Below, one piece after another: positions 17,734 to 57,220 of a stretch of 64,000 nt of DNA. How positions within the stretch are numbered: position 1 is the stretch's first letter; every line of letters starts with the position of its first letter. A program made the position numbers and the translations under genes. Under the pieces are notes generated by a model, which did no database searches, was not told the DNA's origin, and saw nothing but the letters and a program-made list of their open reading frames with translations. Source of the DNA: a virus (Duplodnaviria; Heunggongvirae; Uroviricota; Caudoviricetes); IMG/VR virus record IMGVR_UViG_2675903313_000009; one strand, 5' to 3'.

Positions 17734-17747
17734 GGTAAGTGCTTACC
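17734..17747. promoter_or_regulatory. O2 palindromic operator GGTAAGTGCTTACC in the repressor promoter
   Basis: 6-bp inverted arms with 2-bp centre, about 32 bp upstream of the repressor start; near-identical copy upstream of nrdA. Confidence 0.5.
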
Positions 17748-17952
17748 GATATTACATCAAAGGTTAGGGTTGTAAAGCTATTATCATTTTTTCGATAGGC
17801 ACTTAAAAGACCGGTTAAAGGCCATTGCACGGAGAAAAATTAGCCCAAAACAGGTAAGAAAATTAACTTGCATATGATATGAATGTATTCAGTATTGATA
17901 TAAATTTTAGTAGTATTCCTTACCATAGTATAAGTTAGAATGGATTGATTGA

Positions 17953-18165
17953 ATGAACACCACTATTTCCAGCCTAATCGCTCTTGAGATCGGACACGTA
18001 CAGAAATTAGCTGATGAGTGTGTAGCTGACATCCTCACCGATCTACCGAATGAGCAGATTCAGGTTGGTGTGAATGACACAACTGGCTTTATATTCGAAC
18101 TTAACAACAAACGCTTCACGCTTCTCAATATCGGCTCCGGGTCTTTAGCCGTCAGAATCTGTTAA
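17953..18165 (+). CDS. hypothetical small protein
   Basis: 70 aa ORF divergent from the repressor gene. Confidence 0.4.
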   Translation: MNTTISSLIALEIGHVQKLADECVADILTDLPNEQIQVGVNDTTGFIFELNNKRFTLLNIGSGSLAVRIC

Positions 18166-18263
18166 CCCCTCTTCTCCCTGCGCGAATGGCTTAGTTCCCT
18201 GTTCGCGCAGTGCTACATTAAACACACTAGTAAATAATTTGTTTTCATAACAAAGGATTAGCC

Positions 18264-20372
18264 ATGTCTAAAAAACGTTCCATCAAAGAGGTTCAGGACT
18301 TCCGTGACAGTGTAAAACGAGTAGTCGCTCTCCTTTCAGGTAAAAACATCCCTGTTGCAGAACGAGGGGACGACGCTTATGTACGCTATAACGATGATGG
18401 AGAGCCAATTCTCGTAAACATCCCATCAATCCCGGATAACGCAACACCGGCATTGATGAATGCTGTGCGCGGATTTCTCGATCATGAGGTTGCTCACATT
18501 TTGTTTACCGATATTCGTGTGTCCAACAAAATGAGAGAAAAAGGACGCGTTCCTTCCTGGTCGCTATGGAATGCCTTAGAAGACGTGTTCATCGAGCGAA
18601 AAATGGGTCAGGTCTTTAACGGAACAAGACGTAATCTGATGGCAACTCAGCGCCTTATAATCGAAAAAGTCTTTAAACCAAAGGCTTCAGAGGCTATTGC
18701 TTATTGTGGCAAAGATCAGCGCGCGCTTTTTCTAAACTTCTTTCTCTGTCCGGTTGTAAGAGCCTGGGATGGCCAAGCACCGTTCGTAGATTTCATGGAT
18801 GAACATTGGCCTGTCATTGAGAAACCAATTTCATTATTAAAAGAACATGGTATCGATGTGGCCGTGCGTAACATGTCTTGCACCGAGGATTGTGTAAAGG
18901 TGGCTGCGACCATAGCTAAGATCCTCAAAGACACTGAAAGTGAAAGCAAAGGTAAGGAGTCAGCTCCGGGAAAAACTTCCGATCCTTCAGACGCTGACCA
19001 GACGGATGCCTCTGGAGAAAACAATGAAGACAACGAAGATCATGAGACTCCCTCAGTGTTAGATAATTACAAATCTATCAAATCAGAATCACATAGTAAG
19101 TACAAACATGATAATAACGACAGTGATGATTCAGATAATTCTGAATCATCAGAAACAATATTCGATGATACAGAAAATGATAAAGAGGTATCAGATTCTG
19201 ATGCTTCTGATAACGCGGCGTCAGAATCATTAACCGCTGACCACGAAAAAAGAAAAACGACAGAAGACGGCTCTTCAGATATCCCAACTCCGTCAAAAAT
19301 GAGTCTGGAAGAGGCTTTAGAGGAGTTGGATAGCATGGAAGATGAAGTCGGAGGCATGACAGAAGATGCGCTATCCGAAACGATTAAAAGCGAGTTAACA
19401 GAAAGCTCGAAAAGCGAATACAGGCCATACAATCGCTCATACGACTTCATCGGCTCGATTGATCAGGCAGAAGCCCATATCAAACGGCTTATTAAAACAT
19501 TCTCCGATATTGATTTGGGAGGATATCCAATCAGCCGCTATCGCATCGTTCCTGAAGGCAACCAGCTCTTCGACAAATATATTGAAAAGCATCTTTCGTC
19601 AGGTGTTTCGTCGACGCTGGCAAAAGACCTGGAGCGAGCAATAGCAAGCAGAAACAGAGTTCAGTTTATACCGGGCCAGCGTCGGGGGCGCATTCATGGT
19701 TCTAGTATCTACAGATTAGCAATGAATGATGCTCGCGTGTTTCGTAAAAAAGAAGAATCTAAAGCCGTTAACGCCTGTGTTCAACAAGTGATTGATTTAT
19801 CAGGTTCAATGAGTGGTATAACGATTAAACTGGCTCTTGCAAGTGCATATACCATCGCCGATGCCCTTGATCGAATAAATGTTCCCAACATTATCACCGG
19901 CTTCACTACATTTGGTAGTCATATGGCGGCAGGAGAACTTAAGGCTGTCAAGTATGAGTTCTCTCGCTTTGAATCTTTAATGCTACCTATCATCAAAAAT
20001 TGGAATGAAAAGGTAAATTCTCGCGAAGTTCGCTCACGTATGGGGTGCGTAGGCTACACATTCCCACTTCTTAATAACGTGGATGGTGAAAGCATAGCCA
20101 GCCTTGCATCGTTATTTTCCGGTCGCATGGAGGACAGGAAGATCATGCTTGTTCTGAGTGATGGCGCGCCGTGGGCTGTTGGGAGAGGTTTTGACGCTCA
20201 TTTGCGTTCAGTTGCGAAGCAAATTGAAACGCAGACTGATATTGATTTGATGGCAATTGGCATCATGACTGACGCACCGGAGAGATTTTACTCAAATCAT
20301 GCCCTGGTAACGAGCGTTGATAGTCTTGGTTCATCTGTAGTTACTGAACTATCTCGTATCATTTTAAAGTGA
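18264..20372 (+). CDS. von Willebrand factor A domain protein with acidic linker (CobT-like)
   Basis: MIDAS motif IDLSGSMSG in the C-terminal domain; 140-aa D/E/S-rich central stretch. Confidence 0.65.
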   Translation: MSKKRSIKEVQDFRDSVKRVVALLSGKNIPVAERGDDAYVRYNDDGEPILVNIPSIPDNATPALMNAVRGFLDHEVAHILFTDIRVSNKMREKGRVPSWSLWNALEDVFIERKMGQVFNGTRRNLMATQRLIIEKVFKPKASEAIAYCGKDQRALFLNFFLCPVVRAWDGQAPFVDFMDEHWPVIEKPISLLKEHGIDVAVRNMSCTEDCVKVAATIAKILKDTESESKGKESAPGKTSDPSDADQTDASGENNEDNEDHETPSVLDNYKSIKSESHSKYKHDNNDSDDSDNSESSETIFDDTENDKEVSDSDASDNAASESLTADHEKRKTTEDGSSDIPTPSKMSLEEALEELDSMEDEVGGMTEDALSETIKSELTESSKSEYRPYNRSYDFIGSIDQAEAHIKRLIKTFSDIDLGGYPISRYRIVPEGNQLFDKYIEKHLSSGVSSTLAKDLERAIASRNRVQFIPGQRRGRIHGSSIYRLAMNDARVFRKKEESKAVNACVQQVIDLSGSMSGITIKLALASAYTIADALDRINVPNIITGFTTFGSHMAAGELKAVKYEFSRFESLMLPIIKNWNEKVNSREVRSRMGCVGYTFPLLNNVDGESIASLASLFSGRMEDRKIMLVLSDGAPWAVGRGFDAHLRSVAKQIETQTDIDLMAIGIMTDAPERFYSNHALVTSVDSLGSSVVTELSRIILK

Positions 20373-20467
20373 ACAAAACAGCCTTAACGATAAGTAACCA
20401 CTTACGATATATAATGATATATTTATATAAGAAGTTGAACGCTCATTAGAGAACAAAGGAAAAACGC

Positions 20468-21703
20468 ATGACGACTACTGCACTGCAAAATGAAAAAAAT
20501 CCTTCTGATTACCTTGTTTGCAAGTGGTGCGGCAAATCATTTCACTATTTTAAGTCCCATGTAGCCAATGGTAATTGCGAGGGCATTCCTGAGTCAGTAA
20601 AAGATGCCGATCCTGACACCGTACTGAAAATGTACACAACGCAGTTTCCAGATGAACCAACGCTATCGAAAAAGGCACTTGATGCAATTCAAGCTAAACG
20701 TGCCGAGCAAAAAAGCGAAATGGCCAAATCTTCTGGCTTGACCAGTAGCCCTGGCTACACAGGCACAGTTGAGTACAAGACAGATCTGGTCGCAGCTCAC
20801 GAACTGCTAAACGTAACGGTGGAAGAACTCGGAACAAAACGTGGGACGCCGCTCATGGTTAGCGTCAACGTCAATACGCCGTATCCAGAGTTCGTTCCCG
20901 AAGTGAAGAAAGGCTACGTATATGGCGACTTCGAACTGATCAAAGATATTTTCATGATGCTTGAACTTGGCATACCTGGCTATTTGTGGGGTCATGCAGG
21001 AACAGGCAAATCGTCATTGCCTACACAGCTATGTGCTTTGCTCAATCGTCCGTTGATCCGTGCCCAACATACAGCATCAATGGAAGAGGCACATGTTACG
21101 GGGCAAATTCTGGCGCGTGATGGCTCTACGTATTTCGAACCTGGCTTGCTTGCGCTCGCAATGAAGCATGGCTGGGTTTACCTCGCGGATGAATACGACT
21201 TTGCGTTTCCACAAATTCTTGGCGTGTATCAGCCAGTGCTGGAAGGTGAAGCGTTGGTCATCAAAGAGGCAACTCCAGAATGGCGTCGCATTACTCCGCA
21301 TGAACGGTTTGCTTTCATTGGCACTGGCAACACGAACGGATCTGGTGATGAAACCGGCTTGTACCAGGGTACAAACATCCAGAACGCCGCGAACTTTTCG
21401 CGTTTTGGCATCGTTTCGAATGTGAAATACATGAGCAAAGACGCAGAGATCAACATGTTGACAAATGCAGGCATCGTGGATGAATACGCTGAAAAGATGG
21501 TTAAGTTTGCCGGTATCGTTCGCGATGGATACGAAGAACACCTCATTAGTCAGCCAATTGGCCCTCGTGAACTTTTGTTGTCGGCCAAGATTGGAATGAT
21601 GCGAGGCGACTTTGTGACAGGTATTGAGCGTTCTTTCATTAACAAACTCCCTTCAGCTTCTGCACAAGCGGCTCGTGAAGTTGTTCAAAAAATATTTGGT
21701 TAA
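20468..21703 (+). CDS. AAA+ ATPase (CobS/MoxR-like)
   Basis: Walker A GHAGTGKSS, Walker B VYLADEYDFA; N-terminal CxxC...C cysteine cluster. Confidence 0.65.
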   Translation: MTTTALQNEKNPSDYLVCKWCGKSFHYFKSHVANGNCEGIPESVKDADPDTVLKMYTTQFPDEPTLSKKALDAIQAKRAEQKSEMAKSSGLTSSPGYTGTVEYKTDLVAAHELLNVTVEELGTKRGTPLMVSVNVNTPYPEFVPEVKKGYVYGDFELIKDIFMMLELGIPGYLWGHAGTGKSSLPTQLCALLNRPLIRAQHTASMEEAHVTGQILARDGSTYFEPGLLALAMKHGWVYLADEYDFAFPQILGVYQPVLEGEALVIKEATPEWRRITPHERFAFIGTGNTNGSGDETGLYQGTNIQNAANFSRFGIVSNVKYMSKDAEINMLTNAGIVDEYAEKMVKFAGIVRDGYEEHLISQPIGPRELLLSAKIGMMRGDFVTGIERSFINKLPSASAQAAREVVQKIFG

Positions 21704-21705
21704 TC

Positions 21706-21909
21706 GTGCGTAAAGGATGTTTCGGCTCTCTTATCGCTGCTTCTGAAACTGGTAAGGCTTGTCTGGTGTGTCCAGACAAGCCCGATTGTCACCAATCAGC
21801 AAAAGAAGTTGCGATTTCGATGCATGGGAAGTTCGTAGGCTTCCCCAATGACAAAATCAAAAAAACCAGAAAGGTAAAAACACATGAAGGCACTGATGGT
21901 TCGAACTGA
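21706..21909 (+). CDS. small Cys-rich hypothetical protein (uncertain)
   Basis: 67 aa, GTG start, overlaps the polymerase start region. Confidence 0.3.
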   Translation: MRKGCFGSLIAASETGKACLVCPDKPDCHQSAKEVAISMHGKFVGFPNDKIKKTRKVKTHEGTDGSN

Positions 21910-24900
21910 CTTCTCACTTGGGGAGTCGGCTCTAAAAGCAGAAAACGCGGTGAAGATTGCCAGAGAAGCTGGCTACACCGCTGTAATTTCAGCAGATAGC
22001 ATGAATATTGCGAGCGTTATTCCACTACAACGTGCCGCTGGTGACGACATGGCGGTTATTTGTGGTGTGAAACTAAACATTGTTGATGATCCCACATACG
22101 AGCACCGGGCTAAACTTGCTAAAGAATCTATGAGATGTATGGAATCATTAGAGCGGGGACGTAACTACTCGTTTACCGCTCTAATTAAAAATGAGCAAGG
22201 ATATCGCGACATCTGCGAACTAATGACGGTGGCCAACACACGAGAACAGTTCTACTTTGTACCGCGTCTCTCGCTCGAAAAGTTGGTTTCTACATATGCC
22301 AAAGGCAACATCATCCTGCTCACTTCCGACATCGGTAGCGTGTTCCAACGCAACGATTTTGCAAAAATCATAAGCTCACTGATTACAGCGGGCGGGAAAG
22401 ACAACTTCTATAGTGTGGTTTATCCGCACCCTACCCCATTCTACGACCAGATTAACGTCCGAGCGATGAAAGTCGCCAGCGCACTGAAAATAGAGCCAGT
22501 AGCGTTCTATCCCGCTTATTACGAATCGATCGACGATGCAGACATTAAAGACATTGCGCACATGGTTACGAACAACATAAAAATCGACCAGCCGCATCGT
22601 CTGCGTATCCCCCACCAGCGAGATAACGCCATCAATGGTCGTCGCCATCTCCTTGAGGCGCTTAAAGCCTTCTCCGTTCGCATGGATGTGCCGGTAACAG
22701 CTGCAATGGCCTCAACAACGCAGGACTCCATTATCGATGCCTGCACATGGCGCTGGCATGAATTGCCACCAGCACTGCCCAAGATGGCAGACGACGAACC
22801 TGCAACGCTGATGAAACTGGCTGTTGCAGGGCTGCGTAAACGTCTTACCACAAAAGAGTTTGGATACACACCACCTGCTTCTGAGAACAGGGTTTATGTT
22901 GAGCGGCTAAAGTACGAAATGGACACGCTGACTCGCCTGGGATTCTGTGGTTACTTCCTGATGGTACGCGATCTGATGAATCACAGCCGTGAAACTGGCA
23001 TTCCTGTCGGGCCTGGTCGTGGTTCCTCTGCCGGTTCTCTGGTGGCGTGGTGCATAGGCATAACCAACGTCGACCCAATCCGTCACGGTCTTCTGTTTGA
23101 GCGTTTCATCAACCCTGAGCGTCTCGACTTGCCGGATGCGGACTTGGACTTCAGCCAGGCACGTCGCCATGAGGTGATCGAGTATCTGAATGAACGCTAC
23201 GGCGAAGATTACGTTGCAGGCATTCCGAACTTCACCTACCTGGGCGCAGCCTCTGCACTACGTGACACCGCTCGTATTTATGGTGTGGAGTCCGCAGATA
23301 TGGCGGTATCAAAAGAACTGAAGAACGTCGAGGATGATAGCCTTCCATTGGAAGAGCTGCGCGAACAACTGGCAAGTCTCGACAAATACGCAACAAAATA
23401 TCCTGATGCATTCAATGCAGCCTGCAAGTTACAAAGCCTTATGCGTGGCTTTGGTAGACATGCGGCAGGGATGATCGTAGCAGGTGTTCCTCTAACAGAA
23501 CGTACACCGGTTGAGCGCCGTGGTGACGCGCGTTGTATCGCATTTGACAAGCGTTACTGCGAGGCTATGGGCCTAATTAAGCTGGACGTACTTGGTCTGG
23601 CAACTCTCGATTTGCTCGATAGTGCAAAACGCTACATAAAAGAGAACACAGGTGAAGATATCAATCTTGATGCCATTTCTCTTGAAGATCGCAAGGTGCT
23701 GGATGGTTTTGCTGCTGGGTACACTCAAGGTGTTTTCCAGCTTGAATCAGGCCCAATGCGCAAGCTGCTTAAAGATTTAGGTGGTGGAATTGAGCCAATG
23801 AGCTTTAAAACGGTTGTTGCTACGACTGCGCTCTTCCGGCCGGGGCCAATTCAGTCAGGCATGTTGGATGACTATGTTTCTGTAGCCAAAGGCTTTATGA
23901 CGCCGGAATCATTACACCCCGTTCTTGATGAACTTACCGCAGAAACAAATGGCGTGATTCTCTATCAGGAACAGACGATGAACGCGACTCGATTGCTTGC
24001 TGGCTTCACAATGGCTGAAGCTGACGGCGTTCGTAAAGCGATCGGTAAAAAAGACATGGAAAAAATGAAGAGCATGGGCGAGAAGTTCATCGTTCAGGCT
24101 CAAGCTGGCTGGATAGACGTTGAGCTGGAAGATGGCACTACACAGCGCATTCACCGTGCGGAACATTTTAAATGCGAAGACGGAACTCTGAAAACTGTCG
24201 AAGAGGCACTTGAGTACGGCGCAAAACTACCTATAAACGCAGTACGCGTTACAGCGTCACATCCAGGGCTATCAGAGATGAAAGCGAAGGAGATCTGGAC
24301 CGCATTCGAAAAGAATGGTGCCTACCAGTTCAACAAATCACACTCTGTTGCTTACTCCTTAATCAGTTATCAATCTATGTGGTTGAAAACTCATTATCCC
24401 GCGGAGTTCTTCGCTGCTGCTCTCACTATTCTTGGCGAAGATAAACACCAGGGGCTGGTTAAAGATGCGCTGACCTATGGTATTCGCGTATTGCCACCAG
24501 ACGTTAACGTGTCATCTAACCGAATCGAGATCCGCACGCTTGAAGATGGCAGCCAGGTGCTGTATGCGCCCTTCTCTGCTGTGAAAGGGTGTTCTGAGAA
24601 TGGCTGCCAAGCCATCATGAGAGCGCGAGAAAAAGTTGGCGGCAAATTCGAGTCACTGGCGCAATTCGAAGAAGCTGTCGAGAAACGTGCCTGTAATAGT
24701 CGAGTGCGCGAATCGCTGCAAAAAGTAGGGGCGTTTGCATCCATCGAGCCAGGCAGTCTGCCAGCAACTGATCCAGAGCGCCTACGCGACCAGGCTGAAT
24801 TGATGGGAAACCTTGTCATAGACGCAGTTAAAGCCTCACGTCCGTTTGAGATGAACCCCAAACGTTCGGCTGAAATTAACGTACTCATGACGCGGATGGC

Positions 24901-25402
24901 GGCTGAAATGGGCTTAGGTGATGAACTAATCCGCCCCAGCATTGGTATTAAGCCGAAAATCATGATCATTCTGGACAATGCGAACGGCAATGATGCTCGA
25001 ACCGGTTACTTTATGGAGAACGGATACGACGACTTTAAGGCCAAGCTATTGACGGCTGGAGATTTACGCATGGGCGATCTCTATGTCACAGGTGTTTGCA
25101 AGAAGGTTAAAGACAAAGAAAAAGACTACACCAAAGACGAGATCGGCCAGTTCACCGACTTTATGCGTGAAGAGATCAATCTGGTGCGTCCGACCTATGT
25201 GCTGACGTGTGGCAGCCGGGCAACTTCATTGTTTAACAACAAAAACAAGCCATCCGATTTGGTCGGCAGGAAGGAGTATCTTCCAGACCTTGACGTTACT
25301 GTCTTTTACGGGTTTAACCCCAACATTCTTTACTTCAGACCTGAAGAGGGAGAACGACTAGAAGCGATATTAGCCGACGTAGCAGAAACCATTAAGACGT
25401 GA
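21884..25402 (+). CDS. dnaE: DnaE-type (DNA polymerase III alpha-like) replicative polymerase
   Basis: 1172 aa; segments GIPVGPGRGSSAGSLVAW, LLFERFINPERLDLPD and FNKSHSVAYSLISYQSMWLKTHYPAEF closely parallel E. coli DnaE. Confidence 0.9.
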   Translation: MKALMVRTDFSLGESALKAENAVKIAREAGYTAVISADSMNIASVIPLQRAAGDDMAVICGVKLNIVDDPTYEHRAKLAKESMRCMESLERGRNYSFTALIKNEQGYRDICELMTVANTREQFYFVPRLSLEKLVSTYAKGNIILLTSDIGSVFQRNDFAKIISSLITAGGKDNFYSVVYPHPTPFYDQINVRAMKVASALKIEPVAFYPAYYESIDDADIKDIAHMVTNNIKIDQPHRLRIPHQRDNAINGRRHLLEALKAFSVRMDVPVTAAMASTTQDSIIDACTWRWHELPPALPKMADDEPATLMKLAVAGLRKRLTTKEFGYTPPASENRVYVERLKYEMDTLTRLGFCGYFLMVRDLMNHSRETGIPVGPGRGSSAGSLVAWCIGITNVDPIRHGLLFERFINPERLDLPDADLDFSQARRHEVIEYLNERYGEDYVAGIPNFTYLGAASALRDTARIYGVESADMAVSKELKNVEDDSLPLEELREQLASLDKYATKYPDAFNAACKLQSLMRGFGRHAAGMIVAGVPLTERTPVERRGDARCIAFDKRYCEAMGLIKLDVLGLATLDLLDSAKRYIKENTGEDINLDAISLEDRKVLDGFAAGYTQGVFQLESGPMRKLLKDLGGGIEPMSFKTVVATTALFRPGPIQSGMLDDYVSVAKGFMTPESLHPVLDELTAETNGVILYQEQTMNATRLLAGFTMAEADGVRKAIGKKDMEKMKSMGEKFIVQAQAGWIDVELEDGTTQRIHRAEHFKCEDGTLKTVEEALEYGAKLPINAVRVTASHPGLSEMKAKEIWTAFEKNGAYQFNKSHSVAYSLISYQSMWLKTHYPAEFFAAALTILGEDKHQGLVKDALTYGIRVLPPDVNVSSNRIEIRTLEDGSQVLYAPFSAVKGCSENGCQAIMRAREKVGGKFESLAQFEEAVEKRACNSRVRESLQKVGAFASIEPGSLPATDPERLRDQAELMGNLVIDAVKASRPFEMNPKRSAEINVLMTRMAAEMGLGDELIRPSIGIKPKIMIILDNANGNDARTGYFMENGYDDFKAKLLTAGDLRMGDLYVTGVCKKVKDKEKDYTKDEIGQFTDFMREEINLVRPTYVLTCGSRATSLFNNKNKPSDLVGRKEYLPDLDVTVFYGFNPNILYFRPEEGERLEAILADVAETIKT

Positions 25403-25409
25403 TCCCATA

Positions 25410-25959: not shown

Positions 25960-26076
25960 TTTTTGATAGATAATAAGTATGTACTGATCTATTATTTAAC
26001 AGCTCGAAAGAGCCACGAATGAACGAAAGCCCAACGCGCATAGCGCCATCGGCCAAATCACAACAAGGAGAAACAC

Positions 26077-29482: not shown

Positions 29483-29544
29483 TCTCTTGAAAATATATAA
29501 GTACTTACTTATTATTTTCGCATAACAACCACATAGGAAAACAC

Positions 29545-31427: not shown

Positions 31428-31466
31428 GTTTACAGTAAAGTTTATATAAGTTAGTATCTACCTATC

Positions 31467-31646
31467 ATGAAGATTTTTATTGAATACTTGTTACTCATCG
31501 TTTCAATAGCTTTTGTCATCGACTGCATTTTCACTGGTGTCATTCGTAAAGTCTTTTCCCCGGTGCACGACGTAGTCATAAACGCTTTGGCTATCGTGCT
31601 CGTATTTAATTCAGCATTTGATGTAATCAAAGAGGTGGCAGCATGA
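31467..31646 (+). CDS. small membrane protein
   Basis: 59 aa hydrophobic ORF; stop overlaps the next ATG (ATGA). Confidence 0.4.
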   Translation: MKIFIEYLLLIVSIAFVIDCIFTGVIRKVFSPVHDVVINALAIVLVFNSAFDVIKEVAA

Positions 31647-35244: not shown

Positions 35245-35565
35245 TGATAATCAATCCTTTTTCAATTTGGAAAATTCCTCTTATACGGTAATTGTTGATA
35301 ATAAAAATATCAAATGATACATGACCCATGAGATAGTTCATTCATATGTAACGATGAGACTTTTGCCTACCATATACATCTAAGCACTTCAATGAAACTC
35401 TAGCCGCCTTGTAAGCAATCCATTCAACAATTTTGGTAGGTATTCACTTACCTATTTATTTTGTAATACTATGCCTGTTGATGTTCTTCTGTGCCGTGCT
35501 GTGTTGGTTGCTCACCTCTCGAGCAAGCTTAAGATTTGTATCAAATAACCACAAAGGAAAAACAC

Positions 35566-40109: not shown

Positions 40110-40121
40110 TTTCATTGATAG

Positions 40122-40135
40122 GTAAGTGCTTATCT
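40122..40135. promoter_or_regulatory. O2 operator-like motif GGTAAGTGCTTATC within a sigma70-like promoter upstream of nrdA
   Basis: TTGATA-aggtaagtgcttatctat-TAACAT; 13 of 14 identical to the motif in the repressor promoter; followed by a hairpin (40142-40165). Confidence 0.45.
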
Positions 40136-40182
40136 ATTAACATGGGCCACTATATTTAGTGGCCCTCTTTATTTGGTGATAC

Positions 40183-44694: not shown

Positions 44695-44865
44695 TTGTAG
44701 GTAGTTATCTATCTGTGTATATTGCGTTGGCGCGTTAAATTTCTGAAACAACTATTCGTTTTTGGTGGCCTGTGGCCACCATTTTTTTATCTATCTGGTC
44801 TTGTTCTCTCAATAAATGTAAACTCACACAATGAATAAGTGATTACTTATCTTTGTGAGGTTTTT

Positions 44866-49519: not shown

Positions 49520-49702
49520 CGTTCCCCTACTTAAAATAAAGCCCATAGAGAGCTTTATAGTACTGGGTAAGCCAATCACATACCCAGCACCACAAAAACG
49601 CGCCAGAGAGCTTCTCGTTTGCATTTCTGGCGCGTTTTATTTGATTGCCAGACATAAAATCAAATGCAAAAATAGGTATATACTTACCTATCGAGAAAGA
49701 AG

Positions 49703-50296
49703 ATGATTGCAGCCGAAAAAATCAAACAGCGAAAGCGCGACAACTCTCTTCGTGACCTCTGGAGAACACCTGACTGGCTGTTTTCTGCCATTCAACGTTA
49801 TCTTGGAGTGACATTTGATGTTGACGTTGCCTGCAACAAGGACAATGCAAAGCTGCCTAATTTCATAGGCGTTGAGCGTGATGCTTTGAAATCTGAATGG
49901 GGACAGCCAGGTACAATTGCCTTCCTCAATCCACCCTACTCCAAAATCTACCCCTGGATTGATGCGGCTATACGTGAGCAGGCTCGCGGAGTTACAACAG
50001 TGATGCTAATTCCTCAATCCCTAGATACAAAGTGGTATGAGCGTGCAACAGAGTGTGCGAATGAGACGATTATTCTGTCTGGTGGCCGCGTAGCGTTTGT
50101 CGAACCTGACGTAAATCTGGGTCAGGTAGAAGTAAACATCAACCCAGGTGGCAGTATGCTCGTTGTTTTTCGAGGATTCTGTCAGGACGCTGGGCACTCT
50201 ATAAGCAAGATCCCTTTGGACGTCATGAAAAGTCTGGGAGGGTATGATCATGCGAATGTGATCAGGAAAAAAAGACCATCAAAGAAGGCTGCTTAG
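49703..50296 (+). CDS. phage-type DNA N6-adenine methyltransferase (Dam-like)
   Basis: catalytic motif FLNPPYS; about 197 aa. Confidence 0.75.
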   Translation: MIAAEKIKQRKRDNSLRDLWRTPDWLFSAIQRYLGVTFDVDVACNKDNAKLPNFIGVERDALKSEWGQPGTIAFLNPPYSKIYPWIDAAIREQARGVTTVMLIPQSLDTKWYERATECANETIILSGGRVAFVEPDVNLGQVEVNINPGGSMLVVFRGFCQDAGHSISKIPLDVMKSLGGYDHANVIRKKRPSKKAA

Positions 50297-50481: not shown

Positions 50482-50712
50482 ATGTCATACCCGACTAATG
50501 TCGTTGCGCTCGTAGAGAGCGATTTTCTGGCCCAGGCTCGTGAAATGATGAAAGATCGTGAGCAGGCTTTCAACTTGTACGAATGGGCAATTAAGTGCTT
50601 GCATCTTGGCGAGCATCGCGAACTTGTTGAACAGCTTTTAGGTGAGTTGATCAATGAGGTGTTTGCCTTGAATGTTCAACTACATGGTAGAGAAAATAAT
50701 CAATCACAATGA
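50482..50712 (+). CDS. hypothetical small protein
   Basis: 76 aa; start context aaggaaaccaacATG; ORF open from 50458. Confidence 0.45.
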   Translation: MSYPTNVVALVESDFLAQAREMMKDREQAFNLYEWAIKCLHLGEHRELVEQLLGELINEVFALNVQLHGRENNQSQ

Positions 50713-50719
50713 TAGATAA

Positions 50720-51290
50720 GTACAAACTATTCATAAAGTGAATTGTAAGTGCTAAGATCTGATAGTTTCCAGTCGTAGACTGGAGACTCGACCTGATGGG
50801 TGGGGGTAAGCGTCACTGGCGTCAGGTTTAAAAAAGCTCACTACCAGCGTAGAACTGGTGCCGTTTAGGTGTCGGGGAAGGGGGAACCAAAGTGAGCAGA
50901 GACAAGGGTCACTTTATGATTGTCGAGTCTGGGGTGTTTCGAGAGGTTGAATCCAGTACTCCCCTTCATAAAGTGTGGGAAGATCTCGGTTCTGGGGTGC
51001 TGTCATCCATAACTTCCCAAGTCTAAGCTGGCAGTAGACTTAGACCATAACTTTTCAGGTTATGAAACGACCAGGTTGGTGAGAGATTTTTATACTCACC
51101 TCCCTGGGAGAGTATTACCTGAAAAGACAACCTCTCACTTCGTTCGAGGTGAACTTCACTCACTTCGTTCGTTCAGTTCAGGTTTATAAAAACCTGTTCT
51201 GGGAAGTAATTTGTTTATTTTAATAATTATTAACACGCACGCGTGTGCGCACGCGCGAGGAAAAATCGGCGCGGCGCTTGATTCAGGAGT
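50720..51290 (+). other. 570-bp structured noncoding region (candidate ncRNA or origin/packaging element)
   Basis: no credible ORF; G-runs, repeated tctggggtg, several local hairpins, tandem tcacttcgttcg repeat, 25-nt perfect alternating purine-pyrimidine tract at 51233-51257. Confidence 0.4.
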
Positions 51291-51294
51291 TTAT

Positions 51295-51885
51295 ATGACG
51301 ACGAAGACACCAGCCCGATCGCAAGCAAAAACTCGCAAAAAAGACAAAAACAAAAATTCTCCCCGCACCAATCCCACAACGCCTGTCGTAGAGTTCAATC
51401 CCCAGCTTAAAACCGTGAAAATCTTTAGTGATGGCTCTTGCCTTAAAAATCCGGGTGGCCCGGGCGGTTACGGTATCGTTCTCCAGTATCGTGGTGAGGA
51501 ACGCGAGTTCTCAGATGGTTTTCATAGCACCACCAATAACCGCATGGAGATGATGGGGGCACTTATCGGGCTGGAGCGTTTGAAATATCCATGCAACGTT
51601 ATTTTGCACTCTGATAGCCAGTATCTGAAAAACGGCATGACACAGTGGATGAAATGGTGGAAACGCAATGGATGGATGACTTCTGACAAAAAACCGGTAA
51701 AGAATGTTGATCTGTGGAAGCGTCTGGATGAGGCCGCAAGTCGACATAATGTTCGCTGGAAGTGGGTTAAAGGTCACGCCGGGCATCGTGAAAATGAAAT
51801 ATGTGATCGACTCGCGAAGATCGCAGCTTTTTCAGCAGCAGATATGCCTCACAAGAAAGATATTGGTTTTGTTTATAACAAATAG
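51295..51885 (+). CDS. rnhA: ribonuclease HI with basic N-terminal extension
   Basis: [38 protein letters not shown] parallel E. coli RNase HI; ORF open from 51211. Confidence 0.9.
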
Positions 51886-52033
51886 TAAGTAAGTGTTTAC
51901 CTATCATTTTAAATCATGTATCTTATCGGCGTCAGGATGACAATGTGTCGGTAAGACACAGTTCCAGGATGGAACGAGAAAGGCGGCTGGCAATCGCCAG
52001 CCGCAACTCTTTCTGACACTGGATGGAGTCCAC

Positions 52034-52782: not shown

Positions 52783-52795
52783 AAACAACTTGTTT
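52783..52795. promoter_or_regulatory. O1 dyad motif (candidate operator) upstream of TerB-like gene
   Basis: agaaaacaacttgttttgac about 25 bp upstream of the ATG at 52820. Confidence 0.45.
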
Positions 52796-52819
52796 TGACA
52801 AATAATAAAAGGAAAACAC

Positions 52820-53403: not shown

Positions 53404-53405
53404 TG

Positions 53406-53435
53406 ACAAGGGCCATTTGGCCCTTGTGTTTCGTT
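53406..53435 (+). terminator. rho-independent terminator
   Basis: stem acaagggcc/ggcccttgt followed by gtttcgtt. Confidence 0.65.
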
Positions 53436-53511
53436 GACCGAAATAGAGAGTTTGCACCTTTACGTTTAGCTTGCTCCCCTTTTATGCCACATCACAATAA
53501 AGCCAATAAGA

Positions 53512-53524
53512 AAACAACTTGTTT
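53512..53524. promoter_or_regulatory. O1 dyad motif (candidate operator)
   Basis: aagaaaacaacttgtttaag about 18 bp upstream of the ATG at 53543. Confidence 0.45.
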
Positions 53525-53542
53525 AAGCATTAAGGAAAACAC

Positions 53543-54109
53543 ATGTGCGAGAAATGCAAAGCAATAGCTGATGAACAAAACGCCCTATTCGAAGAAATGG
53601 ATGCTAATGAACTTGTCAAAATGTTAGGCATTGTTCGGGGAACAGAAGACGTTTCTATATTTGAGAGACTGTTTACAGTACTTAATTTTAATTCCACCTT
53701 TGAAGAGCCAACTCAGGTTGTAGCTTTGGCACACCATTTCGGTGTTCATTATCTTGCCGAAAAAGAGCGCGCTAATAAGTTGCAGGCGACTTTGGATATG
53801 GTGAGCGAGACTCAAGGAACCCATGACGGTAACAATAGTGAGACGATTATTGCCAGCAAAGATCGTGAAATTGCCGGACTTAAGTCTTCTCTAACGATGT
53901 TGATGTCTGCAATCAATCTTATGTCTTCTAAAGCGGGATATAAAATGCCATCACTAAACAGTGACGATCCAATGGCCGTTCGCCAGCTTTTGGGAGCAAT
54001 GGCCGACCAGCTTGATGATACGAAAAGTCGGCTTGAAGACATGATGCGGGAGCTTACGCATCGCCACGACTTGAATAAGCAACCGCACAAAACGCAATAC
54101 GCACTCTAA
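53543..54109 (+). CDS. hypothetical protein
   Basis: 188 aa; start context aaggaaaacacATG. Confidence 0.5.
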   Translation: MCEKCKAIADEQNALFEEMDANELVKMLGIVRGTEDVSIFERLFTVLNFNSTFEEPTQVVALAHHFGVHYLAEKERANKLQATLDMVSETQGTHDGNNSETIIASKDREIAGLKSSLTMLMSAINLMSSKAGYKMPSLNSDDPMAVRQLLGAMADQLDDTKSRLEDMMRELTHRHDLNKQPHKTQYAL

Positions 54110-54250
54110 TACTGCACCAGTCGACAGGGGGCGAAAGCCCCCATTTTTACGCCTTAAATCTGCTGTAACGCCTATGAATGCAGCTTTTATGCCTTTTCAA
54201 GTTTGCGATAATTACACCAATCAGAAAACAAATTATTTAATGGTGTAATT

Positions 54251-55936
54251 ATGAATACAGCCCTTTCCATCATCGACGATGCCAGCTCAAACACGGCTAT
54301 CGACTATCGTCAGGAAATGAATGTCATCCACGAAATCGTGGCCGAGTGCGAGAAAGAGATCGCCTTCATGTATCAGGTACACGACTTCGTTTATGGCGAC
54401 GAACGCCACAACATGATTAATCGCCTGCTGAGACTAAACCATCGACCAGATGAAGATCGCTCGCGTTTAAATCGAGGTTGGTTGGATAAAGTCGATCTGG
54501 AATGGGTGAAACAGAATATTTGGGCCGAGTACTGGAGGAAGGTCACGGACATGACTAACGTTTTGCTGATCATGCCAGCTTCCCGTCGAGATGAGTGGCG
54601 CGAGCAGTTTATAGAGGGCAAACAGGAAGTCATCAAAACTGACAGAACCGGCTACCAGATGAAGGTTAAAGAGTTCGTTGGTGTACCGGAGTTCAAAGCA
54701 GAAACGGTCATACCCACGATGCTTAATTTGCTGAATGACAGGCACAAATATCTCTCTGAGCGCGTGTATGGCTTGTTTAAGGCGCTGAGTCCTGCGCACA
54801 AGACAAATAAGACAAACGGTTTCAGCGAGCGTCTGATAATCGCTGACTGCATTTCTGATTTCTGGCGGGACAGCGTTAGCGTGAACTATCGCAAAGAGGA
54901 CTACATCGACGATCTGCGTGTCTTGCTTCATTTCTTCGCGCACAAAGAATTTATTACCATCAACCGCACTGCTGAGGTGCTATCAGCTGCGTATCGGGCA
55001 AACGACTGCCAGACCGGTGACTGGATGAACGTCGATGGAAATCTGATGCGCGTGAAGATGTTCAAGAACGGCAACGTTCACTTTGAAATACATCCTGACG
55101 TGGCCTGGAAGTTGAATGAGGTGCTGGCTTACAGTATGCCTGCTGCAATCCCCGCGCCATGCCGAACTGCGCCAAAAACACGGGCACCAAAGCAGTTCGG
55201 GTTAATCCAGAAGACGATCTCCGTGCCGGTTCGCACTGCGCTTCGTGACGGGCGATTGAGCAAAGACAAAGGCGTATGGTACTTCTCTGATTCAGCTCTC
55301 CAGAAGTCGCAGGTGGAAGAGCTTGAGCGCACACTGAGCTTCATTGGCGGCGTGCAGGAGAAAAAGCACTGGCAGTTCCCGTATGACATCGGCCATACGC
55401 TAAATACGATTGTGGCTACCGGTTTAATACCGGATACAAAATCACACCAGTTCTACCCTACCCCACGCTTGATTGCTGAGTACGTTGCAAGAGCCACTGA
55501 ATTGAAGCCTGGTGAGAAGCTGTTGGAGCCTCAAGCCGGACGTGGGGATCTTCTGGCCTATATAAACGCCGATCTGGAAGATGTTACCTGCATAGAAATC
55601 GCACCTCTCTTCGCTGATATCCTGCGTGGAAAAGGGTATACGAACACGATTTGCTGCGACTTCATAAAGTGGTCTGAGGACAACGCAGGTTATCAGTTCG
55701 ACAAAATCGTTATGAACCCGCCGTACTCGCTTGGTCGTCATAGAGAGCACACGCTGGCTGCGCTGGGGCATCTGAAAGTCGGCGGGCGTCTTGTAGCAGT
55801 ATTGCCGGGCACTGCGCCAATACTGGACTGGATGACGATGGATAATTACGTTTATGCCAGAGGGAAGTCGTTTACCAACGAGTTTGAAGACACAGGGATC
55901 ACAGTCAGCGTATACGTTTTCAAACGCGTTAAATGA
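54251..55936 (+). CDS. DNA N6-adenine methyltransferase fused to a large N-terminal domain of unknown function
   Basis: C-terminal region with FYPTPRLIAEYV, FxGxG-like LEPQAGRGDLL and catalytic NPPYS; about 400 aa of unassigned N-terminal sequence. Confidence 0.6.
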   Translation: MNTALSIIDDASSNTAIDYRQEMNVIHEIVAECEKEIAFMYQVHDFVYGDERHNMINRLLRLNHRPDEDRSRLNRGWLDKVDLEWVKQNIWAEYWRKVTDMTNVLLIMPASRRDEWREQFIEGKQEVIKTDRTGYQMKVKEFVGVPEFKAETVIPTMLNLLNDRHKYLSERVYGLFKALSPAHKTNKTNGFSERLIIADCISDFWRDSVSVNYRKEDYIDDLRVLLHFFAHKEFITINRTAEVLSAAYRANDCQTGDWMNVDGNLMRVKMFKNGNVHFEIHPDVAWKLNEVLAYSMPAAIPAPCRTAPKTRAPKQFGLIQKTISVPVRTALRDGRLSKDKGVWYFSDSALQKSQVEELERTLSFIGGVQEKKHWQFPYDIGHTLNTIVATGLIPDTKSHQFYPTPRLIAEYVARATELKPGEKLLEPQAGRGDLLAYINADLEDVTCIEIAPLFADILRGKGYTNTICCDFIKWSEDNAGYQFDKIVMNPPYSLGRHREHTLAALGHLKVGGRLVAVLPGTAPILDWMTMDNYVYARGKSFTNEFEDTGITVSVYVFKRVK

Positions 55937-55997
55937 TAGGTAAATACTTACTTAATTTATGTAAGAATGTAGTTACTAAACGATAAGAGAAAAACAC

Positions 55998-56702
55998 ATG
56001 AGCAACCTCCAGTTAGAGCATTTTAACGTCACAGGCCATTCCGATTTTCCTTTCAAGTTTACATTGAAAGGTTATGCAGAGGATGCGGTAGGCCAGATCA
56101 TTATTGATAAAGGCATCGTTAAGTTTGAGGGGAATTTTGATGAATCCGCGAAAACATTCATAGACTTCGTTGCCAAACGTTGGAGCGAGCAATGGAAAGA
56201 CCTGGAAAAGCGCGCTAGTGAGTTTGATCGGTTCATGGATGCAATGGATACAGCAAAAGAGGCTCTTGCTGCCGGGACTCCGTTAGATCTGGAGTCACTT
56301 TTCAACGGCGAAGTGGCCTCTGCGATGTTCGCCACCATGTTCGCGGGTGAGTTCGTCCGCAGCGGTGCCAAAAACTACCTTGAGCTGGATTACAACGTCC
56401 CTGCAATTGGCGATTTCGTCGTTACCATCCAACGCAAAGAAGGTAAGACGCCAGGTGAACGCGTCGCAGAGCTTGAGGCCGTTGTGGATCAGCGTAACGG
56501 AGAGTGTGACCGTTTGATCAACGAGCTTCATGCACTTCGGGAAGAAAGAATATGCGCGGGTAGTAATACACGTAATGCAGCGGATATCTACTTCCAGTTA
56601 GTTGAGGAATGCCAGATTCCACCAGGTGGCTCTCTTGTCGATTACGTCAGACATTTAATGGCGGAAGTTAACTCCAGCCATAAAGATGGTGAGGTGCGCT
56701 GA
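55998..56702 (+). CDS. hypothetical protein
   Basis: 234 aa; start context aagagaaaaacacATG. Confidence 0.5.
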   Translation: MSNLQLEHFNVTGHSDFPFKFTLKGYAEDAVGQIIIDKGIVKFEGNFDESAKTFIDFVAKRWSEQWKDLEKRASEFDRFMDAMDTAKEALAAGTPLDLESLFNGEVASAMFATMFAGEFVRSGAKNYLELDYNVPAIGDFVVTIQRKEGKTPGERVAELEAVVDQRNGECDRLINELHALREERICAGSNTRNAADIYFQLVEECQIPPGGSLVDYVRHLMAEVNSSHKDGEVR

Positions 56703-57082
56703 TGTTTGGCATTGATGCACAGCGTATAGCAGCTTTTGCAAAAAGTCCTCTTGATAATCCCTTGTCTCGTAGTGAGCAAATGGCGCTGGCAAGGCTTTTT
56801 CTTCACATTCAAAAACAGGCAGACGTTTTCAATAACATGCCTGATCAACCTATTCTGGATGGTCACATCCAGATGGTCATTAACAGTCATGAGAAAGGCT
56901 GGGCTGCAATCGTCCCCTGCACAATTACATACAAGTTGGCGAAAGAGGTTCAAGAGTTTCGAAAAGTCAGCGTCGAATCAGAGTCTACCAAAGCCGCAAT
57001 AAACACTCTTATTCGCATGGGGTTCACATGGGACGGTGGAGCTTACTGGCAAGCACCTCAACCCATTTTATCCGACAATTAG
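56702..57082 (+). CDS. hypothetical protein
   Basis: 126 aa; start overlaps the previous stop. Confidence 0.45.
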   Translation: MFGIDAQRIAAFAKSPLDNPLSRSEQMALARLFLHIQKQADVFNNMPDQPILDGHIQMVINSHEKGWAAIVPCTITYKLAKEVQEFRKVSVESESTKAAINTLIRMGFTWDGGAYWQAPQPILSDN

Positions 57083-57220
57083 GCGCTACAAATCCTTCTG
57101 CATGAATAAATAAAGGCCATAAGTTATGGCCTTAAATAAATTGTTTTCTACCTTTTCTTATTTGTGAAAATAAACCAGCACTTGGTAGTGCTTATGTAAC
57201 AGCAAAGAAGAGAAAAACAC

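What the first reader, a model, noticed from the sequence alone, without database searches (positions are those of the whole stretch)
17734..57200. Second dispersed palindrome family O2 (GGTAAGTGCTTACC-like), including a copy in the repressor promoter
A perfect-arm palindrome GGTAAG-TG-CTTACC sits about 32 bp upstream of the HTH repressor-like gene, and a 13/14-identical copy lies inside a sigma70-like promoter (TTGATA-N17-TAACAT) upstream of nrdA at 40122-40135. Related TAAGTA/TACTTA palindromes occur in many intergenic regions (around 4060, 12837, 29498, 44832, 49682, 51887, 55937, 57185), often overlapping -35/-10-like hexamers. This suggests autoregulation of the repressor plus repression of replication and nucleotide genes in the prophage state. 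A hairpin at 40142-40165 between the nrdA promoter and start may add attenuation.
Basis: seen in the sequence. Interest (0 to 1): 0.5.

Follow-up and report, generated by a model that had tools for sequence, protein, structure and literature searches.

The report
Genome-wide operator palindrome of SSU5-like phage-plasmids
The "O2" repeats are real copies of a 20-24 bp palindrome found about 25 times per genome in SSU5-like plasmid-prophages; it most likely is the binding site through which the phage's small repressor keeps nearly all lytic genes silent, a regulon I did not find described in the papers I could search.

Summary
The window is an SSU5-like phage-plasmid, 97-99% identical to Escherichia phages CMS-2020a and Cyrano. 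The 14-mer GGTAAGTGCTTACC is the core of a 20-24 bp palindrome, (TG)ATARGTAAGTACTTACYTAT(CA). There are 13 strong and 3 weaker copies in the window, against 0.04 expected by chance, and all are intergenic. The same motif sits at orthologous places in Cyrano, SSU5 and Klebsiella pJN2-26, including the late structural genes. The two arms vary independently, so this is a DNA site for a symmetric dimer and not an RNA hairpin. The core copy at 17734 lies at about +1 of a conserved promoter of the 128-aa XRE-type repressor gene. In distant relatives the dispersed motif changes (TAAGT to TCAGT). The copy upstream of the repressor gene changes with it, and so does the repressor's recognition helix (N39/N42 to R39/V42). 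In published Cyrano lysogen RNA-seq the repressor is expressed and O2-linked genes sit at background. Best reading, confidence about 0.6: a dispersed operator or roadblock network, analogous to P1 C1 operators and mycobacteriophage stoperators. Binding is not shown. The nrdA hairpin looks like an intrinsic terminator rather than an attenuator.

The parts
17734..17747 (.). O2 core palindrome GGTAAGTGCTTACC on the repressor promoter (about +1 to +14 of the predicted P(rep)). It lacks the ATA/TAT outer arms.
   Evidence: The conserved block TGGTAAGTRYTTACCKATATTACA...TTGTAAAG is near-invariant (two degenerate positions within the palindrome) in 5 lineages whose repressors are 57-70% identical to the window protein.
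17749..17776 (-). Predicted promoter of the repressor gene: -35 TTTACA (17776-17771), 16-nt spacer, -10 TAATAT (17754-17749).
   Evidence: both hexamers are invariant in the alignment.
17316..17702 (-). 128-aa XRE/Cro-C1-type HTH protein, the candidate master repressor and O2 binder (orthologue of CYRAN_45).
   Evidence: Core gene of the plasmid forms. Expressed in the lysogen.
4057..4076 (.). O2 copy, 12 nt upstream of the ATG at 4089.
9325..9344 (.). O2 copy upstream of the gene starting at 9386; an extended -10-like TGTAAGAAT lies downstream.
10196..10215 (.). Weak O2 copy (left half good).
12841..12860 (.). O2 copy upstream of a 750-nt non-coding stretch and the tRNA cluster.
15699..15718 (.). 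O2 copy 13 nt downstream of a perfect TATAAT, upstream of the glutaredoxin gene.
25973..25992 (.). O2 copy upstream of the gp32-like SSB gene. Its right arm, TATTAT, is the predicted -10.
29493..29512 (.). O2 copy in the spacer of TTGAAA-N17-TATTAT, just after a terminator-like hairpin.
31446..31465 (.). O2 copy ending 1 nt before the ATG at 31467.
35436..35455 (.). O2 copy upstream of the SbcD-like gene.
40118..40137 (.). O2 copy filling the spacer of the nrdA promoter TTGATA(40115-40120)-N17-TAACAT(40138-40143).
40144..40165 (+). Terminator-like hairpin GGGCCACTA-TATT-TAGTGGCCC followed by TCTTTATTT.
   Evidence: conserved with a T-run in SSU5 and pJN2-26.
44831..44850 (.). Weak or irregular O2 copy upstream of thyX.
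49672..49691 (.). O2 copy 11 nt upstream of the ATG at 49703 (adenine methyltransferase).
50712..50731 (.). Weak O2 copy that overlaps the stop codon of the preceding gene.
51885..51904 (.). O2 copy that overlaps the stop codon of the RNase H-like gene.
55936..55955 (.). O2 copy that overlaps the stop codon of the DUF4942 gene; an extended -10-like TGTAAGAAT lies downstream.

Best explanation
O2 is the operator of a phage-encoded, symmetric (dimeric) DNA-binding protein. That protein is most probably the 128-aa XRE-type repressor encoded at 17316-17702.

In the plasmid-prophage state the repressor would occupy about 25 palindromes, (TG)ATARGTAAGTACTTACYTAT(CA), placed at the heads or junctions of nearly all lytic transcription units: replication, recombination, nucleotide metabolism, structural and lysis genes.

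Where a palindrome overlaps the -35, spacer or -10 of a sigma70 promoter (nrdA, 29493, 25973, 31446), it would block initiation. Where it sits in very tight gene junctions, it would act as a roadblock to read-through.

A core-only, presumably weaker, copy at about +1 of the repressor's own promoter would give negative autoregulation.

Shown here: the family, its size, symmetry and conservation; its position on P(rep); the way the motif changes between lineages; and the expression state in a lysogen. Inferred: who binds, and that binding represses.
For: (1) The family is real. There are 15 hits against 0.04 expected and 16/16 sites are intergenic. Information content is confined to about 24 bp and is mirror-symmetric.

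(2) The arms do not covary: 539 paired cells against 540.8 expected, and G.T-type 68 against A.C-type 55. There is no Rfam match. This points to a DNA site for a dimer.

(3) The same motif occurs at orthologous junctions in Cyrano, SSU5 and pJN2-26. The perfect 20-mer occurs in only 26 stretches of 2.9 million viral contigs, and all 26 are SSU5-like.

(4) The binder is phage-encoded. Two A. baumannii plasmids of this family carry different motifs, GTAAGCGCTTAC and GTCAGTACTGAC.

(5) A copy of the lineage's own motif lies upstream of the repressor gene in E. coli, Klebsiella, Salmonella, E. fergusonii, Photorhabdus and two TCAGT-type lineages.

(6) The recognition helix tracks the motif. KN[AP]NN...SLIK goes with TAAGT, and [KE]RPNV...MIK goes with TCAGT. 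P0056 and P0078 are only 44% identical overall yet share both helix and motif arms. P0056 and the window protein are about 41% identical and differ in both.

(7) The protein has an XRE/Cro-C1 fold: pLDDT 82, with fold matches to C.BclI, C.AhdI, P22 c2, 434 Cro and lambda cI.

(8) Homologue counts per genus in plasmids equal those of the family's DnaE. The lytic isolate SSU5 lacks the integrase-repressor module, and its junction is found uninterrupted in 0 of 822 plasmids.

(9) In the LF82(Cyrano) lysogen the repressor reads 96 against a background of 9.8, and 19 of 21 genes just downstream of O2 read 5-12 (PMC9928086).

(10) Palindromes overlap core promoters at variable geometry, as operators do. 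Enrichment is 7/16 against 9.6%.
Against: There is no binding or transcription-start data.

The link between motif and recognition helix rests on essentially one specificity switch (TAAGT to TCAGT), and every phage protein diverges between those lineages.

SSU5 has no repressor, yet its sites are as good as those in the plasmid forms. They may therefore have a second, repressor-independent role, for example as part of the promoters. Alternatively the deletion is recent, as in mycobacteriophage D29.

The P0032-type repressor has a different helix (YKYQNQVSF) but a similar P(rep) site.

In Acinetobacter p5732 the upstream flank is better conserved than the downstream one, and the downstream flank is often TATAAT. 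That directional feature is expected of promoters.

In p5732 and the K. quasipneumoniae lineage the copy at the repressor gene is only a weak variant or half-sites.

CYRAN_34 (44) and CYRAN_12 (22) are not fully silent despite having O2.
Confidence: 0.6

Rival explanations
1. O2 is bound by a different phage protein and works as a lytic-phase promoter element or activator site. The binder could be the conserved 174-aa 'transcriptional regulator' (CYRAN_114/SSU5_121, outside the window) or an unrecognised early protein. The copy at +1 of P(rep) would then shut off the repressor when the lytic programme starts.
For: SSU5 lacks the 128-aa protein but keeps high-scoring O2 sites everywhere and grows lytically. 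The right arm TATYAT resembles a -10. In Acinetobacter the downstream flank is frequently TATAAT or TAATAT, and the motif is directionally asymmetric. O2-linked genes are silent in lysogens, which fits a missing activator as well as a repressor. Acinetobacter relatives encode a sigma-70 family factor.
Against: No conserved -35 or -10 lies at a fixed distance outside the palindrome. Where a good sigma70 promoter is predicted, the palindrome lies within the core promoter, about -19 to -31 from the expected transcription start implied by the predicted -10 positions (my estimate). That is a repressor position, not an activator position. Several copies lie 1-15 nt from the start codon, or directly upstream of terminators, where a promoter makes little sense. 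PGAP annotation of an E. albertii relative shows no sigma factor. CYRAN_114 is weakly expressed in the lysogen (18), and nothing links it to the motif. The mirror-image left arm has no use in a unidirectional promoter.
Confidence: 0.2
2. O2 acts at the RNA level as a hairpin, for example a processing site, stabiliser, or translational operator in polycistronic mRNAs.
For: The sites are palindromic, intergenic, often just upstream of Shine-Dalgarno sequences, and on the transcribed strand of long same-strand operons.
Against: The arms show no compensatory variation (539 against 540.8 expected). A.C-type mismatches (55) are as common as G.T-type (68). The stems would be AU-rich with no loop. There is no Rfam family. 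One copy sits on the promoter of an oppositely oriented gene.
Confidence: 0.03
3. O2 is a site for a host protein (a nucleoid protein or global regulator), or only a recombination 'boundary' sequence between modules.
For: The sites lie at gene or module junctions and are AT-rich. Recombination between dispersed repressor sites is known in Cluster A mycobacteriophages (PMC5712189).
Against: Two lineages in the same host species (A. baumannii) use different cores. The same core is kept across Escherichia, Salmonella and Klebsiella. The perfect 20-mer is confined to this phage family in IMG/VR. Boundary recombination would be a by-product and does not explain why a 20-bp dyad is conserved.
Confidence: 0.03

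Closest known systems
Stoperators and operators of Cluster A mycobacteriophages (L5 gp71; D29; TipsytheTRex repressor)
   Same: More than 20 repressor sites are spread through the whole genome, mainly in short intergenic gaps of both early and late operons. A lytic deletion derivative (D29 there, SSU5 here) lacks the repressor but keeps the sites. The site consensus differs between immunity groups (PMC5712189, PMC9283540, PMC6550527).
   Different: Stoperators are 13-bp asymmetric sites, oriented with transcription and bound by a monomer with two DNA-binding domains. O2 is a 20-24 bp dyad with independent, mirror-image arms, and the candidate binder is a small XRE-type protein with no detected second DNA-binding domain. 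A block to elongation has not been tested here.
Phage P1 C1 repressor and its dispersed operators (another phage-plasmid)
   Same: A single immunity repressor of a plasmid-prophage controls many separate operons through operators scattered over about 100 kb, including replication-type genes. This comparison is from established knowledge and was not tested here.
   Different: P1 operators are asymmetric 17-mers (ATTGCTCTAATAAATTT). Late genes are controlled indirectly through Lpa. C1 is a 283-aa protein. Here the sites are palindromic and also lie directly in the late region. Homology to C1 was not tested.
Conserved inverted repeats (CIRs) bound by the phiC31 repressor
   Same: A palindromic operator is repeated at many intergenic places near early promoters and terminators of a temperate phage. 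This comparison is from established knowledge and was not tested here.
   Different: The host phylum, sequence and repressor family are all different. The phiC31 sites are described for the early region only.
Lambdoid/XRE-type repressors (lambda cI, P22 c2, 434 cI/Cro) and R-M controller C-proteins
   Same: The fold of the N-terminal domain is the same. The target is a dyad-symmetric operator. There is a site on the protein's own promoter.
   Different: There is no S24 autocleavage domain. There is no clustered OR/OL triplet. Instead there are about 25 single sites genome-wide, and only one conserved copy in the immunity region.

Membership tests
XRE/Cro-C1-type HTH phage repressor (the 17316-17702 protein) | Five-helix Cro/C1-type HTH domain | tested here: met
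   The AF2 model has pLDDT 82. Foldseek target TM-scores are 0.7-0.8 to C.BclI, C.AhdI, P22 c2 and 434 Cro. The PDB profile search hits a LexA-type HTH and an 'immunity repressor'. Pfam HTH_19 is below its cut-off (E 0.0015).
XRE/Cro-C1-type HTH phage repressor (the 17316-17702 protein) | Binds a dyad-symmetric operator as a dimer | not testable with these tools
   Indirect evidence only: a symmetric motif with independent arms, and a recognition helix that changes together with the motif.
XRE/Cro-C1-type HTH phage repressor (the 17316-17702 protein) | Operator on its own promoter (autoregulation) | tested here: met
   The palindrome lies at about +1 to +14 of the conserved TTTACA-16-TAATAT promoter. 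Lineage-specific copies occur upstream of the gene in other lineages.
LexA/lambda-cI-like SOS-cleavable repressor | C-terminal S24 peptidase domain | tested here: not met
   There is no Peptidase_S24 hit in the 128-aa protein. A separate 129-aa S24 protein is encoded at 61672-62061, behind a LexA box.
Stoperator system (Cluster A mycobacteriophages) | More than 20 sites genome-wide, mostly in short intergenic gaps of early and late operons | tested here: met
   There are 20-27 sites per genome in Cyrano, SSU5 and pJN2-26, including the terminase/portal junction and the capsid, tail and lysis junctions.
Stoperator system (Cluster A mycobacteriophages) | Asymmetric site whose orientation follows the direction of transcription | tested here: not met
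   The enterobacterial motif is mirror-symmetric. Only the Acinetobacter p5732 variant shows flank asymmetry.
Stoperator system (Cluster A mycobacteriophages) | Bound repressor stops elongating RNA polymerase | not testable with these tools
   This is suggested only by copies 1-15 nt from start codons, or inside a 26-nt terminase/portal gap.
Stoperator system (Cluster A mycobacteriophages) | Repressor homologous to L5 gp71 (HTH plus a second 'stoperator' domain) | tested here: inconclusive
   The PDB profile search gives a weak hit (E 2.4e-4) to entry 8bny, 'Immunity repressor protein', over the HTH only. I did not identify which phage that entry comes from. The model shows only helices after the HTH.
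P1 C1 operator network | Asymmetric 17-bp operator ATTGCTCTAATAAATTT and a C1-family repressor | not tested
   The O2 consensus is unrelated by inspection. No comparison with the C1 protein was run.
Rho-independent terminator (hairpin 40144-40165) | G+C-rich stem-loop followed by a T-run | tested here: met
   The stem has 9 pairs (6 G-C) with a 4-nt loop, followed by TCTTTATTT. dG is -17.8 and z is -4.4. The orthologues have TTTTTT.
Structured RNA family (Rfam) | Match to a curated covariance model, or compensatory base changes | tested here: not met
   Only tRNAs are found in the window, and the arms show no covariation.

The most novel reading that the evidence does not exclude
SSU5-like phage-plasmids (including the pHCM2-type plasmids of Salmonella, pMT1-type plasmids of Yersinia pestis, and the common Klebsiella and Acinetobacter phage-plasmids) would be silenced by a genome-wide, palindromic, stoperator-like network. 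One small dimeric XRE repressor would gate about 25 lytic transcription units, both at promoters and as roadblocks. Immunity groups would be set by a simple recognition code: helix N39/N42 reading TAAGT, and R39/V42 reading TCAGT. This would be the first such network described in phages of Gram-negative bacteria.
Probability: 0.35. Interest if true: 0.6.

Novelty: new member of a known kind. Interest (0 to 1): 0.45.

Why it matters
SSU5-like phage-plasmids are widespread in Enterobacteria and Acinetobacter; about 800-1000 plasmid records here carry the repressor and DnaE. They include plasmids of S. enterica and Y. pestis.

I found no paper describing how lysogeny is controlled in this family.

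A defined operator, a candidate repressor, a map of about 25 target sites and a natural specificity switch make the control circuit directly testable. They would help predict superinfection immunity and induction, and they offer a compact repressor/operator pair for engineering.

The logic itself, a dispersed repressor regulon, is already known from P1, L5 and phiC31. The advance is a new instance, not a new principle.

Tried and rejected
- RNA hairpin reading: rejected. There is no arm covariation and no strand bias among mismatches, and no Rfam hit.
- Fixed-geometry promoter, with conserved -10 or -35 at a set distance: rejected for the enterobacterial motif. Information content falls to background outside about 24 bp, and predicted promoters overlap at variable offsets.
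- T4 MotA-box resemblance (TGCTTA inside the core): considered from memory. Dropped because the -10-like arm is 0-1 bp from it rather than 11-13 bp.
- Host-factor site: rejected because motifs are lineage-specific within one host species.
- A GC-rich hairpin as a general companion of O2: true for only 4-5 conserved sites per genome. Mean downstream folding energy equals that of random windows.
- 57185 as a family member: rejected.
- The search for related loci with alignments A2 and A3 failed because no stretch was conserved enough. Single-protein scans returned only close relatives.
- Homologues P0081 and P0079 lie in contexts that are not SSU5-like, so they were uninformative.
- L043 gave no repeated exact palindrome.
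- P0032-type lineage: only 20 kb could be fetched. Its 5 sites hint at a shift to GTATGTATTTAC, but the sample is too small, and the allele is absent from the plasmid collection.
- A 2026 preprint on a phage-plasmid could not be opened.
- The early lytic promoter of the 70-aa gene (17953-18165) could not be placed convincingly. No second conserved O2 copy lies there.

Full report
**What the window is.** Megablast shows an SSU5-like phage-plasmid. It is 98.8% identical to Escherichia phage CMS-2020a and 97% to phage Cyrano (pLF82), and about 75-80% identical to Salmonella phage SSU5 and Klebsiella phage-plasmids. Using the Cyrano annotation, the window runs from the partition genes through the T4-like replication, recombination and nucleotide-metabolism genes to an S24 peptidase and a MinD-like gene. 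Almost all genes are on the + strand.

**Checking the observation.** GGTAAGTGCTTACC is exact at 17734-17747, 32 bp upstream of the start of the minus-strand 128-aa HTH gene. It lies inside TTGATA-N17-TAACAT upstream of nrdA.

Printing the flanks of all near-matches showed that the unit is longer. ATARGTAAGTACTTACYTAT with up to 4 mismatches gives 15 hits (13 sites) against 0.04 in 200 dinucleotide shuffles. All 16 sites lie in the 14% of the window that is non-coding. The site near 57185 is not a member. The 17734 copy has a perfect 14-bp core but lacks the ATA/TAT outer arms, and scores 15.8 against 25-30 for the others.

**Distribution beyond the window.** The same palindrome occurs 20-27 times in each complete genome of Cyrano, SSU5 and Klebsiella pJN2-26, at orthologous junctions. 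It is not confined to replication and nucleotide genes. Copies also lie:
- in the 26-nt gap between the large terminase and portal genes;
- inside the 3' end of the portal gene;
- after the major capsid gene;
- after three tail genes;
- before the holin gene.

At the score threshold used (14), the scan found only one copy between about 85 and 108 kb of Cyrano, at 105110 next to the ParB gene.

Aligning 61 sites shows information only within about 24 bp, mirror-symmetric, with no conserved hexamer at a fixed distance outside. The perfect 20-mer occurs in just 26 stretches of the 2.9 million IMG/VR contigs, and all 26 are SSU5-like.

**DNA site or RNA hairpin.** Across 58 distinct sites, the number of arm positions that could pair (539) equals the number expected if right arms are dealt at random (540.8 +/- 5.9). 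A.C-type mismatches (55) are about as common as G.T-type (68). Rfam finds only tRNAs. The two halves therefore match a consensus independently. That is the signature of a symmetric protein dimer on DNA, not of a selected RNA stem.

**Relation to promoters.** With a simple sigma70 scan, 7 of 16 sites have a +-strand promoter whose -10 starts between -5 and +25 of the palindrome centre. The rate for control intergenic positions is 9.6%. The geometry varies:
- In three cases the right arm itself (TATTAT or TATCAT) is the -10, with a -35 16-17 bp upstream. One example is TTGAAA-17-TATTAT at 29493, directly after a terminator.
- At nrdA the palindrome fills the spacer.
- Elsewhere an extended -10 (TGTAAGAAT, TGTAATACT) lies about 18 bp from the centre.
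- At 15699 the palindrome lies just downstream of a perfect TATAAT.

This variable overlap with core promoter elements is what operators look like. Other copies lie 1-15 nt from the next start codon (4057, 31446, 49672, and terminase/portal), where no promoter for that gene fits. Those would have to act on transcripts coming from upstream.

**The repressor promoter.** On the minus strand, TTTACA-16-TAATAT (17776-17749) is predicted. In an alignment of the repressor/70-aa-gene intergenic region from five lineages whose repressors are 57-70% identical to the window protein, one block is almost invariant. It contains the -35, the -10 and the palindrome, while most of the rest of the region is much more variable. 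The palindrome lies at about +1 to +14, a position that would shut the promoter when occupied.

**Who binds.** The 128-aa protein has an XRE/Cro-C1 fold followed by extra helices. The model has pLDDT 82, and the best domain matches are R-M controller proteins, P22 c2, 434 Cro and lambda cI. It has no S24 domain.

Among plasmids, the number of records per genus with a homologue is almost identical to the number carrying the family's DnaE:

| Genus | Records with repressor homologue | Records with DnaE |
|---|---|---|
| Klebsiella | 348 | 348 |
| Escherichia | 230 | 232 |
| Acinetobacter | 154 | 150 |
| Enterobacter | 92 | 94 |
| Yersinia | 63 | 63 |
| Salmonella | 49 | 49 |

The gene is therefore core to the plasmid forms. 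SSU5 lacks the whole integrase/repressor/70-aa-gene module. To my knowledge SSU5 was isolated and used as a lytic phage. Its tRNA-cobT junction is not found uninterrupted in any of 822 plasmid records. SSU5 nevertheless keeps good O2 sites. The same is true of mycobacteriophage D29, a lytic deletion derivative that keeps the stoperators of its temperate relatives (PMC5712189).

**Changes of the motif between lineages.**

| Lineage | Dispersed motif | Copy upstream of the repressor gene |
|---|---|---|
| A. baumannii p5732 | ATTATTAGTAAGCGCTTACTAATAT, 34 copies | weak variant only |
| A. baumannii NZ_CP155459 and an 80% relative | ATCAGTCAGTACTGACTAT | ATCAGTCAGTTCTGAGTAT |
| Metagenomic relative (L040) | TCAGT-N4-ACTGA | CACTGCTGACTGA |
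| Photorhabdus and K. quasipneumoniae relatives | TAAGTAA...TTACTTA | copies or half-sites in the immunity region |

Two motifs within one host species rule out a host factor. The recognition helix follows the motif:
- TAAGT-type lineages have an Asn- or Lys-containing helix (K/E-N/K-x-N-N/M...S-L/F-I).
- The two TCAGT-type lineages have [KE]RPNVL[ST]MIK.

P0056 and P0078 are only 44% identical overall but share helix and motif arms. P0056 and the window protein are about 41% identical and differ in both. This favours the HTH protein as the binder. It amounts, however, to one specificity switch. A P0032-type allele with another helix still has a similar site on its promoter, with only a hint of a shifted consensus in five sites.

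**Expression data.** In published RNA-seq of E. coli LF82 carrying Cyrano (PMC9928086, S1 table), the prophage background is 9.8. The repressor orthologue reads 96. Of the 21 genes immediately downstream of O2 sites, 19 read 5-12; the exceptions are CYRAN_34 at 44 and CYRAN_12 at 22. The other annotated regulator, CYRAN_114, reads 18. Cyrano is induced 39-fold by ciprofloxacin. These data fit repression, but they would equally fit promoters that need a lytic-phase activator.

**The hairpin.** The hairpin at 40144-40165 folds at -17.8 kcal/mol (z -4.4) and scores as terminator-like. In SSU5 and pJN2-26 the same stem is followed by TTTTTT. With the -10 at 40138-40143, the expected transcription start (about 40150) lies inside the 5' arm. 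nrdA transcripts would then lack the stem, while read-through from the upstream operon would terminate. This is an inference. It fits the data better than attenuation. Strong hairpins follow O2 at only 4-5 conserved places per genome: after the capsid gene, after two or three tail genes, and at nrdA. They are not a general feature.

**Comparison with known systems.** The logic matches dispersed repressor regulons. These are P1 C1 operators in another phage-plasmid, phiC31 conserved inverted repeats, and above all the operator/stoperator network of Cluster A mycobacteriophages (PMC9283540, PMC6550527, PMC5712189). O2 fails two defining stoperator features. It is a dyad rather than an oriented asymmetric 13-mer, and the candidate binder is a small XRE protein rather than a two-domain monomer. 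It works like these systems but is not a member of them. I found no description of an SSU5-family operator or immunity circuit in the searchable literature.

**Verdict.** The family is real and functionally constrained; I am almost certain of this. It is a DNA-level site for a phage-encoded symmetric protein (about 0.85). The binder is the 17316-17702 repressor, and binding silences lytic genes and autoregulates the repressor (about 0.6). The main rival, at about 0.2, is a different phage protein using O2 as a lytic promoter element.

Noticed in passing
It has 9 copies in the window and 14-18 per genome in Cyrano, SSU5 and pJN2-26. Copies usually lie 10-30 nt upstream of a start codon. They include the 93-98 kb accessory region of Cyrano, where the O2 scan found no copies. 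No match to this pattern was found in Acinetobacter p5732. Its function is unknown.
   Followed up: partly
window 16172-16191 and 61636-61655: There are two LexA-box-like sites (CTGT-N8-ACAG). TACTGTTTACTTATACAGTG lies 27 bp upstream of the integrase gene (16218). CACTGTATGTGTATACAGTA lies 17 bp upstream of a 129-aa S24-peptidase gene (61672) that has no HTH, resembling UmuD or P1 HumD. This may be the SOS input for an element whose repressor has no cleavage domain.
   Followed up: partly
window 12861-13608 and 13609-14132: About 750 nt with no convincing ORF lies between the O2 copy at 12841 and a cluster of four tRNA genes (Asn, Tyr, Thr, Ser). The tRNA cluster may be transcribed from an O2-controlled promoter.
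   Followed up: no
window 17875-17916: An imperfect 21-bp tandem direct repeat (TGATATGAATGTATTCAGTAT / TGATATAAATTTTAGTAGTAT) lies in the repressor/70-aa-gene intergenic region. It overlaps a second conserved block (GTATTGATATAAA..TAGTAGTATT) that may hold the early lytic promoter. No O2 copy is conserved there.
   Followed up: partly
window 7468-8658 (-) and 14325-15587 (-): Two long minus-strand ORFs (396 and 420 aa) are not annotated at these places in Cyrano. The 420-aa one has no Pfam hit but is annotated in E. albertii pEA11_2. They look like accessory-gene insertions in the backbone.
   Followed up: no
L011 18092-18757 (A. baumannii p5732): Acinetobacter relatives encode a sigma-70-family sigma factor between the MoxR-like ATPase and DnaE. 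The E. coli version has only a 67-aa ORF there (window 21706-21909). In p5732 the O2-type motif is directionally asymmetric and often abuts TATAAT.
   Followed up: partly
O2 half-site in the window, e.g. 51888 AGTAAGTAAGT; L018 ATCAGTCAGT: Each half-site is itself a short tandem, (T)AAGT-AAGT. In the TCAGT-type lineage both sub-repeats changed together, giving TCAGT-CAGT.
   Followed up: no
Cyrano 5446, 15532, 22451, 67886 (= window 40121); SSU5 5474, 9070, 15592, 21940, 67778: At 4-5 conserved junctions the O2 palindrome is followed within 3-10 nt by a strong G+C-rich hairpin (-14 to -21 kcal/mol), often with a T-run. The order is stop codon, then O2, then terminator-like hairpin, then next gene.
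   Followed up: partly
plasmid hits (e.g. NZ_AP025769.1, NZ_MF133442.1): In many Klebsiella and Enterobacter relatives the DnaE match is split in two pieces by an HNH/NUMOD4 endonuclease gene. This suggests an intron or intein-type insertion that the window's dnaE (21884-25402) lacks.
   Followed up: no
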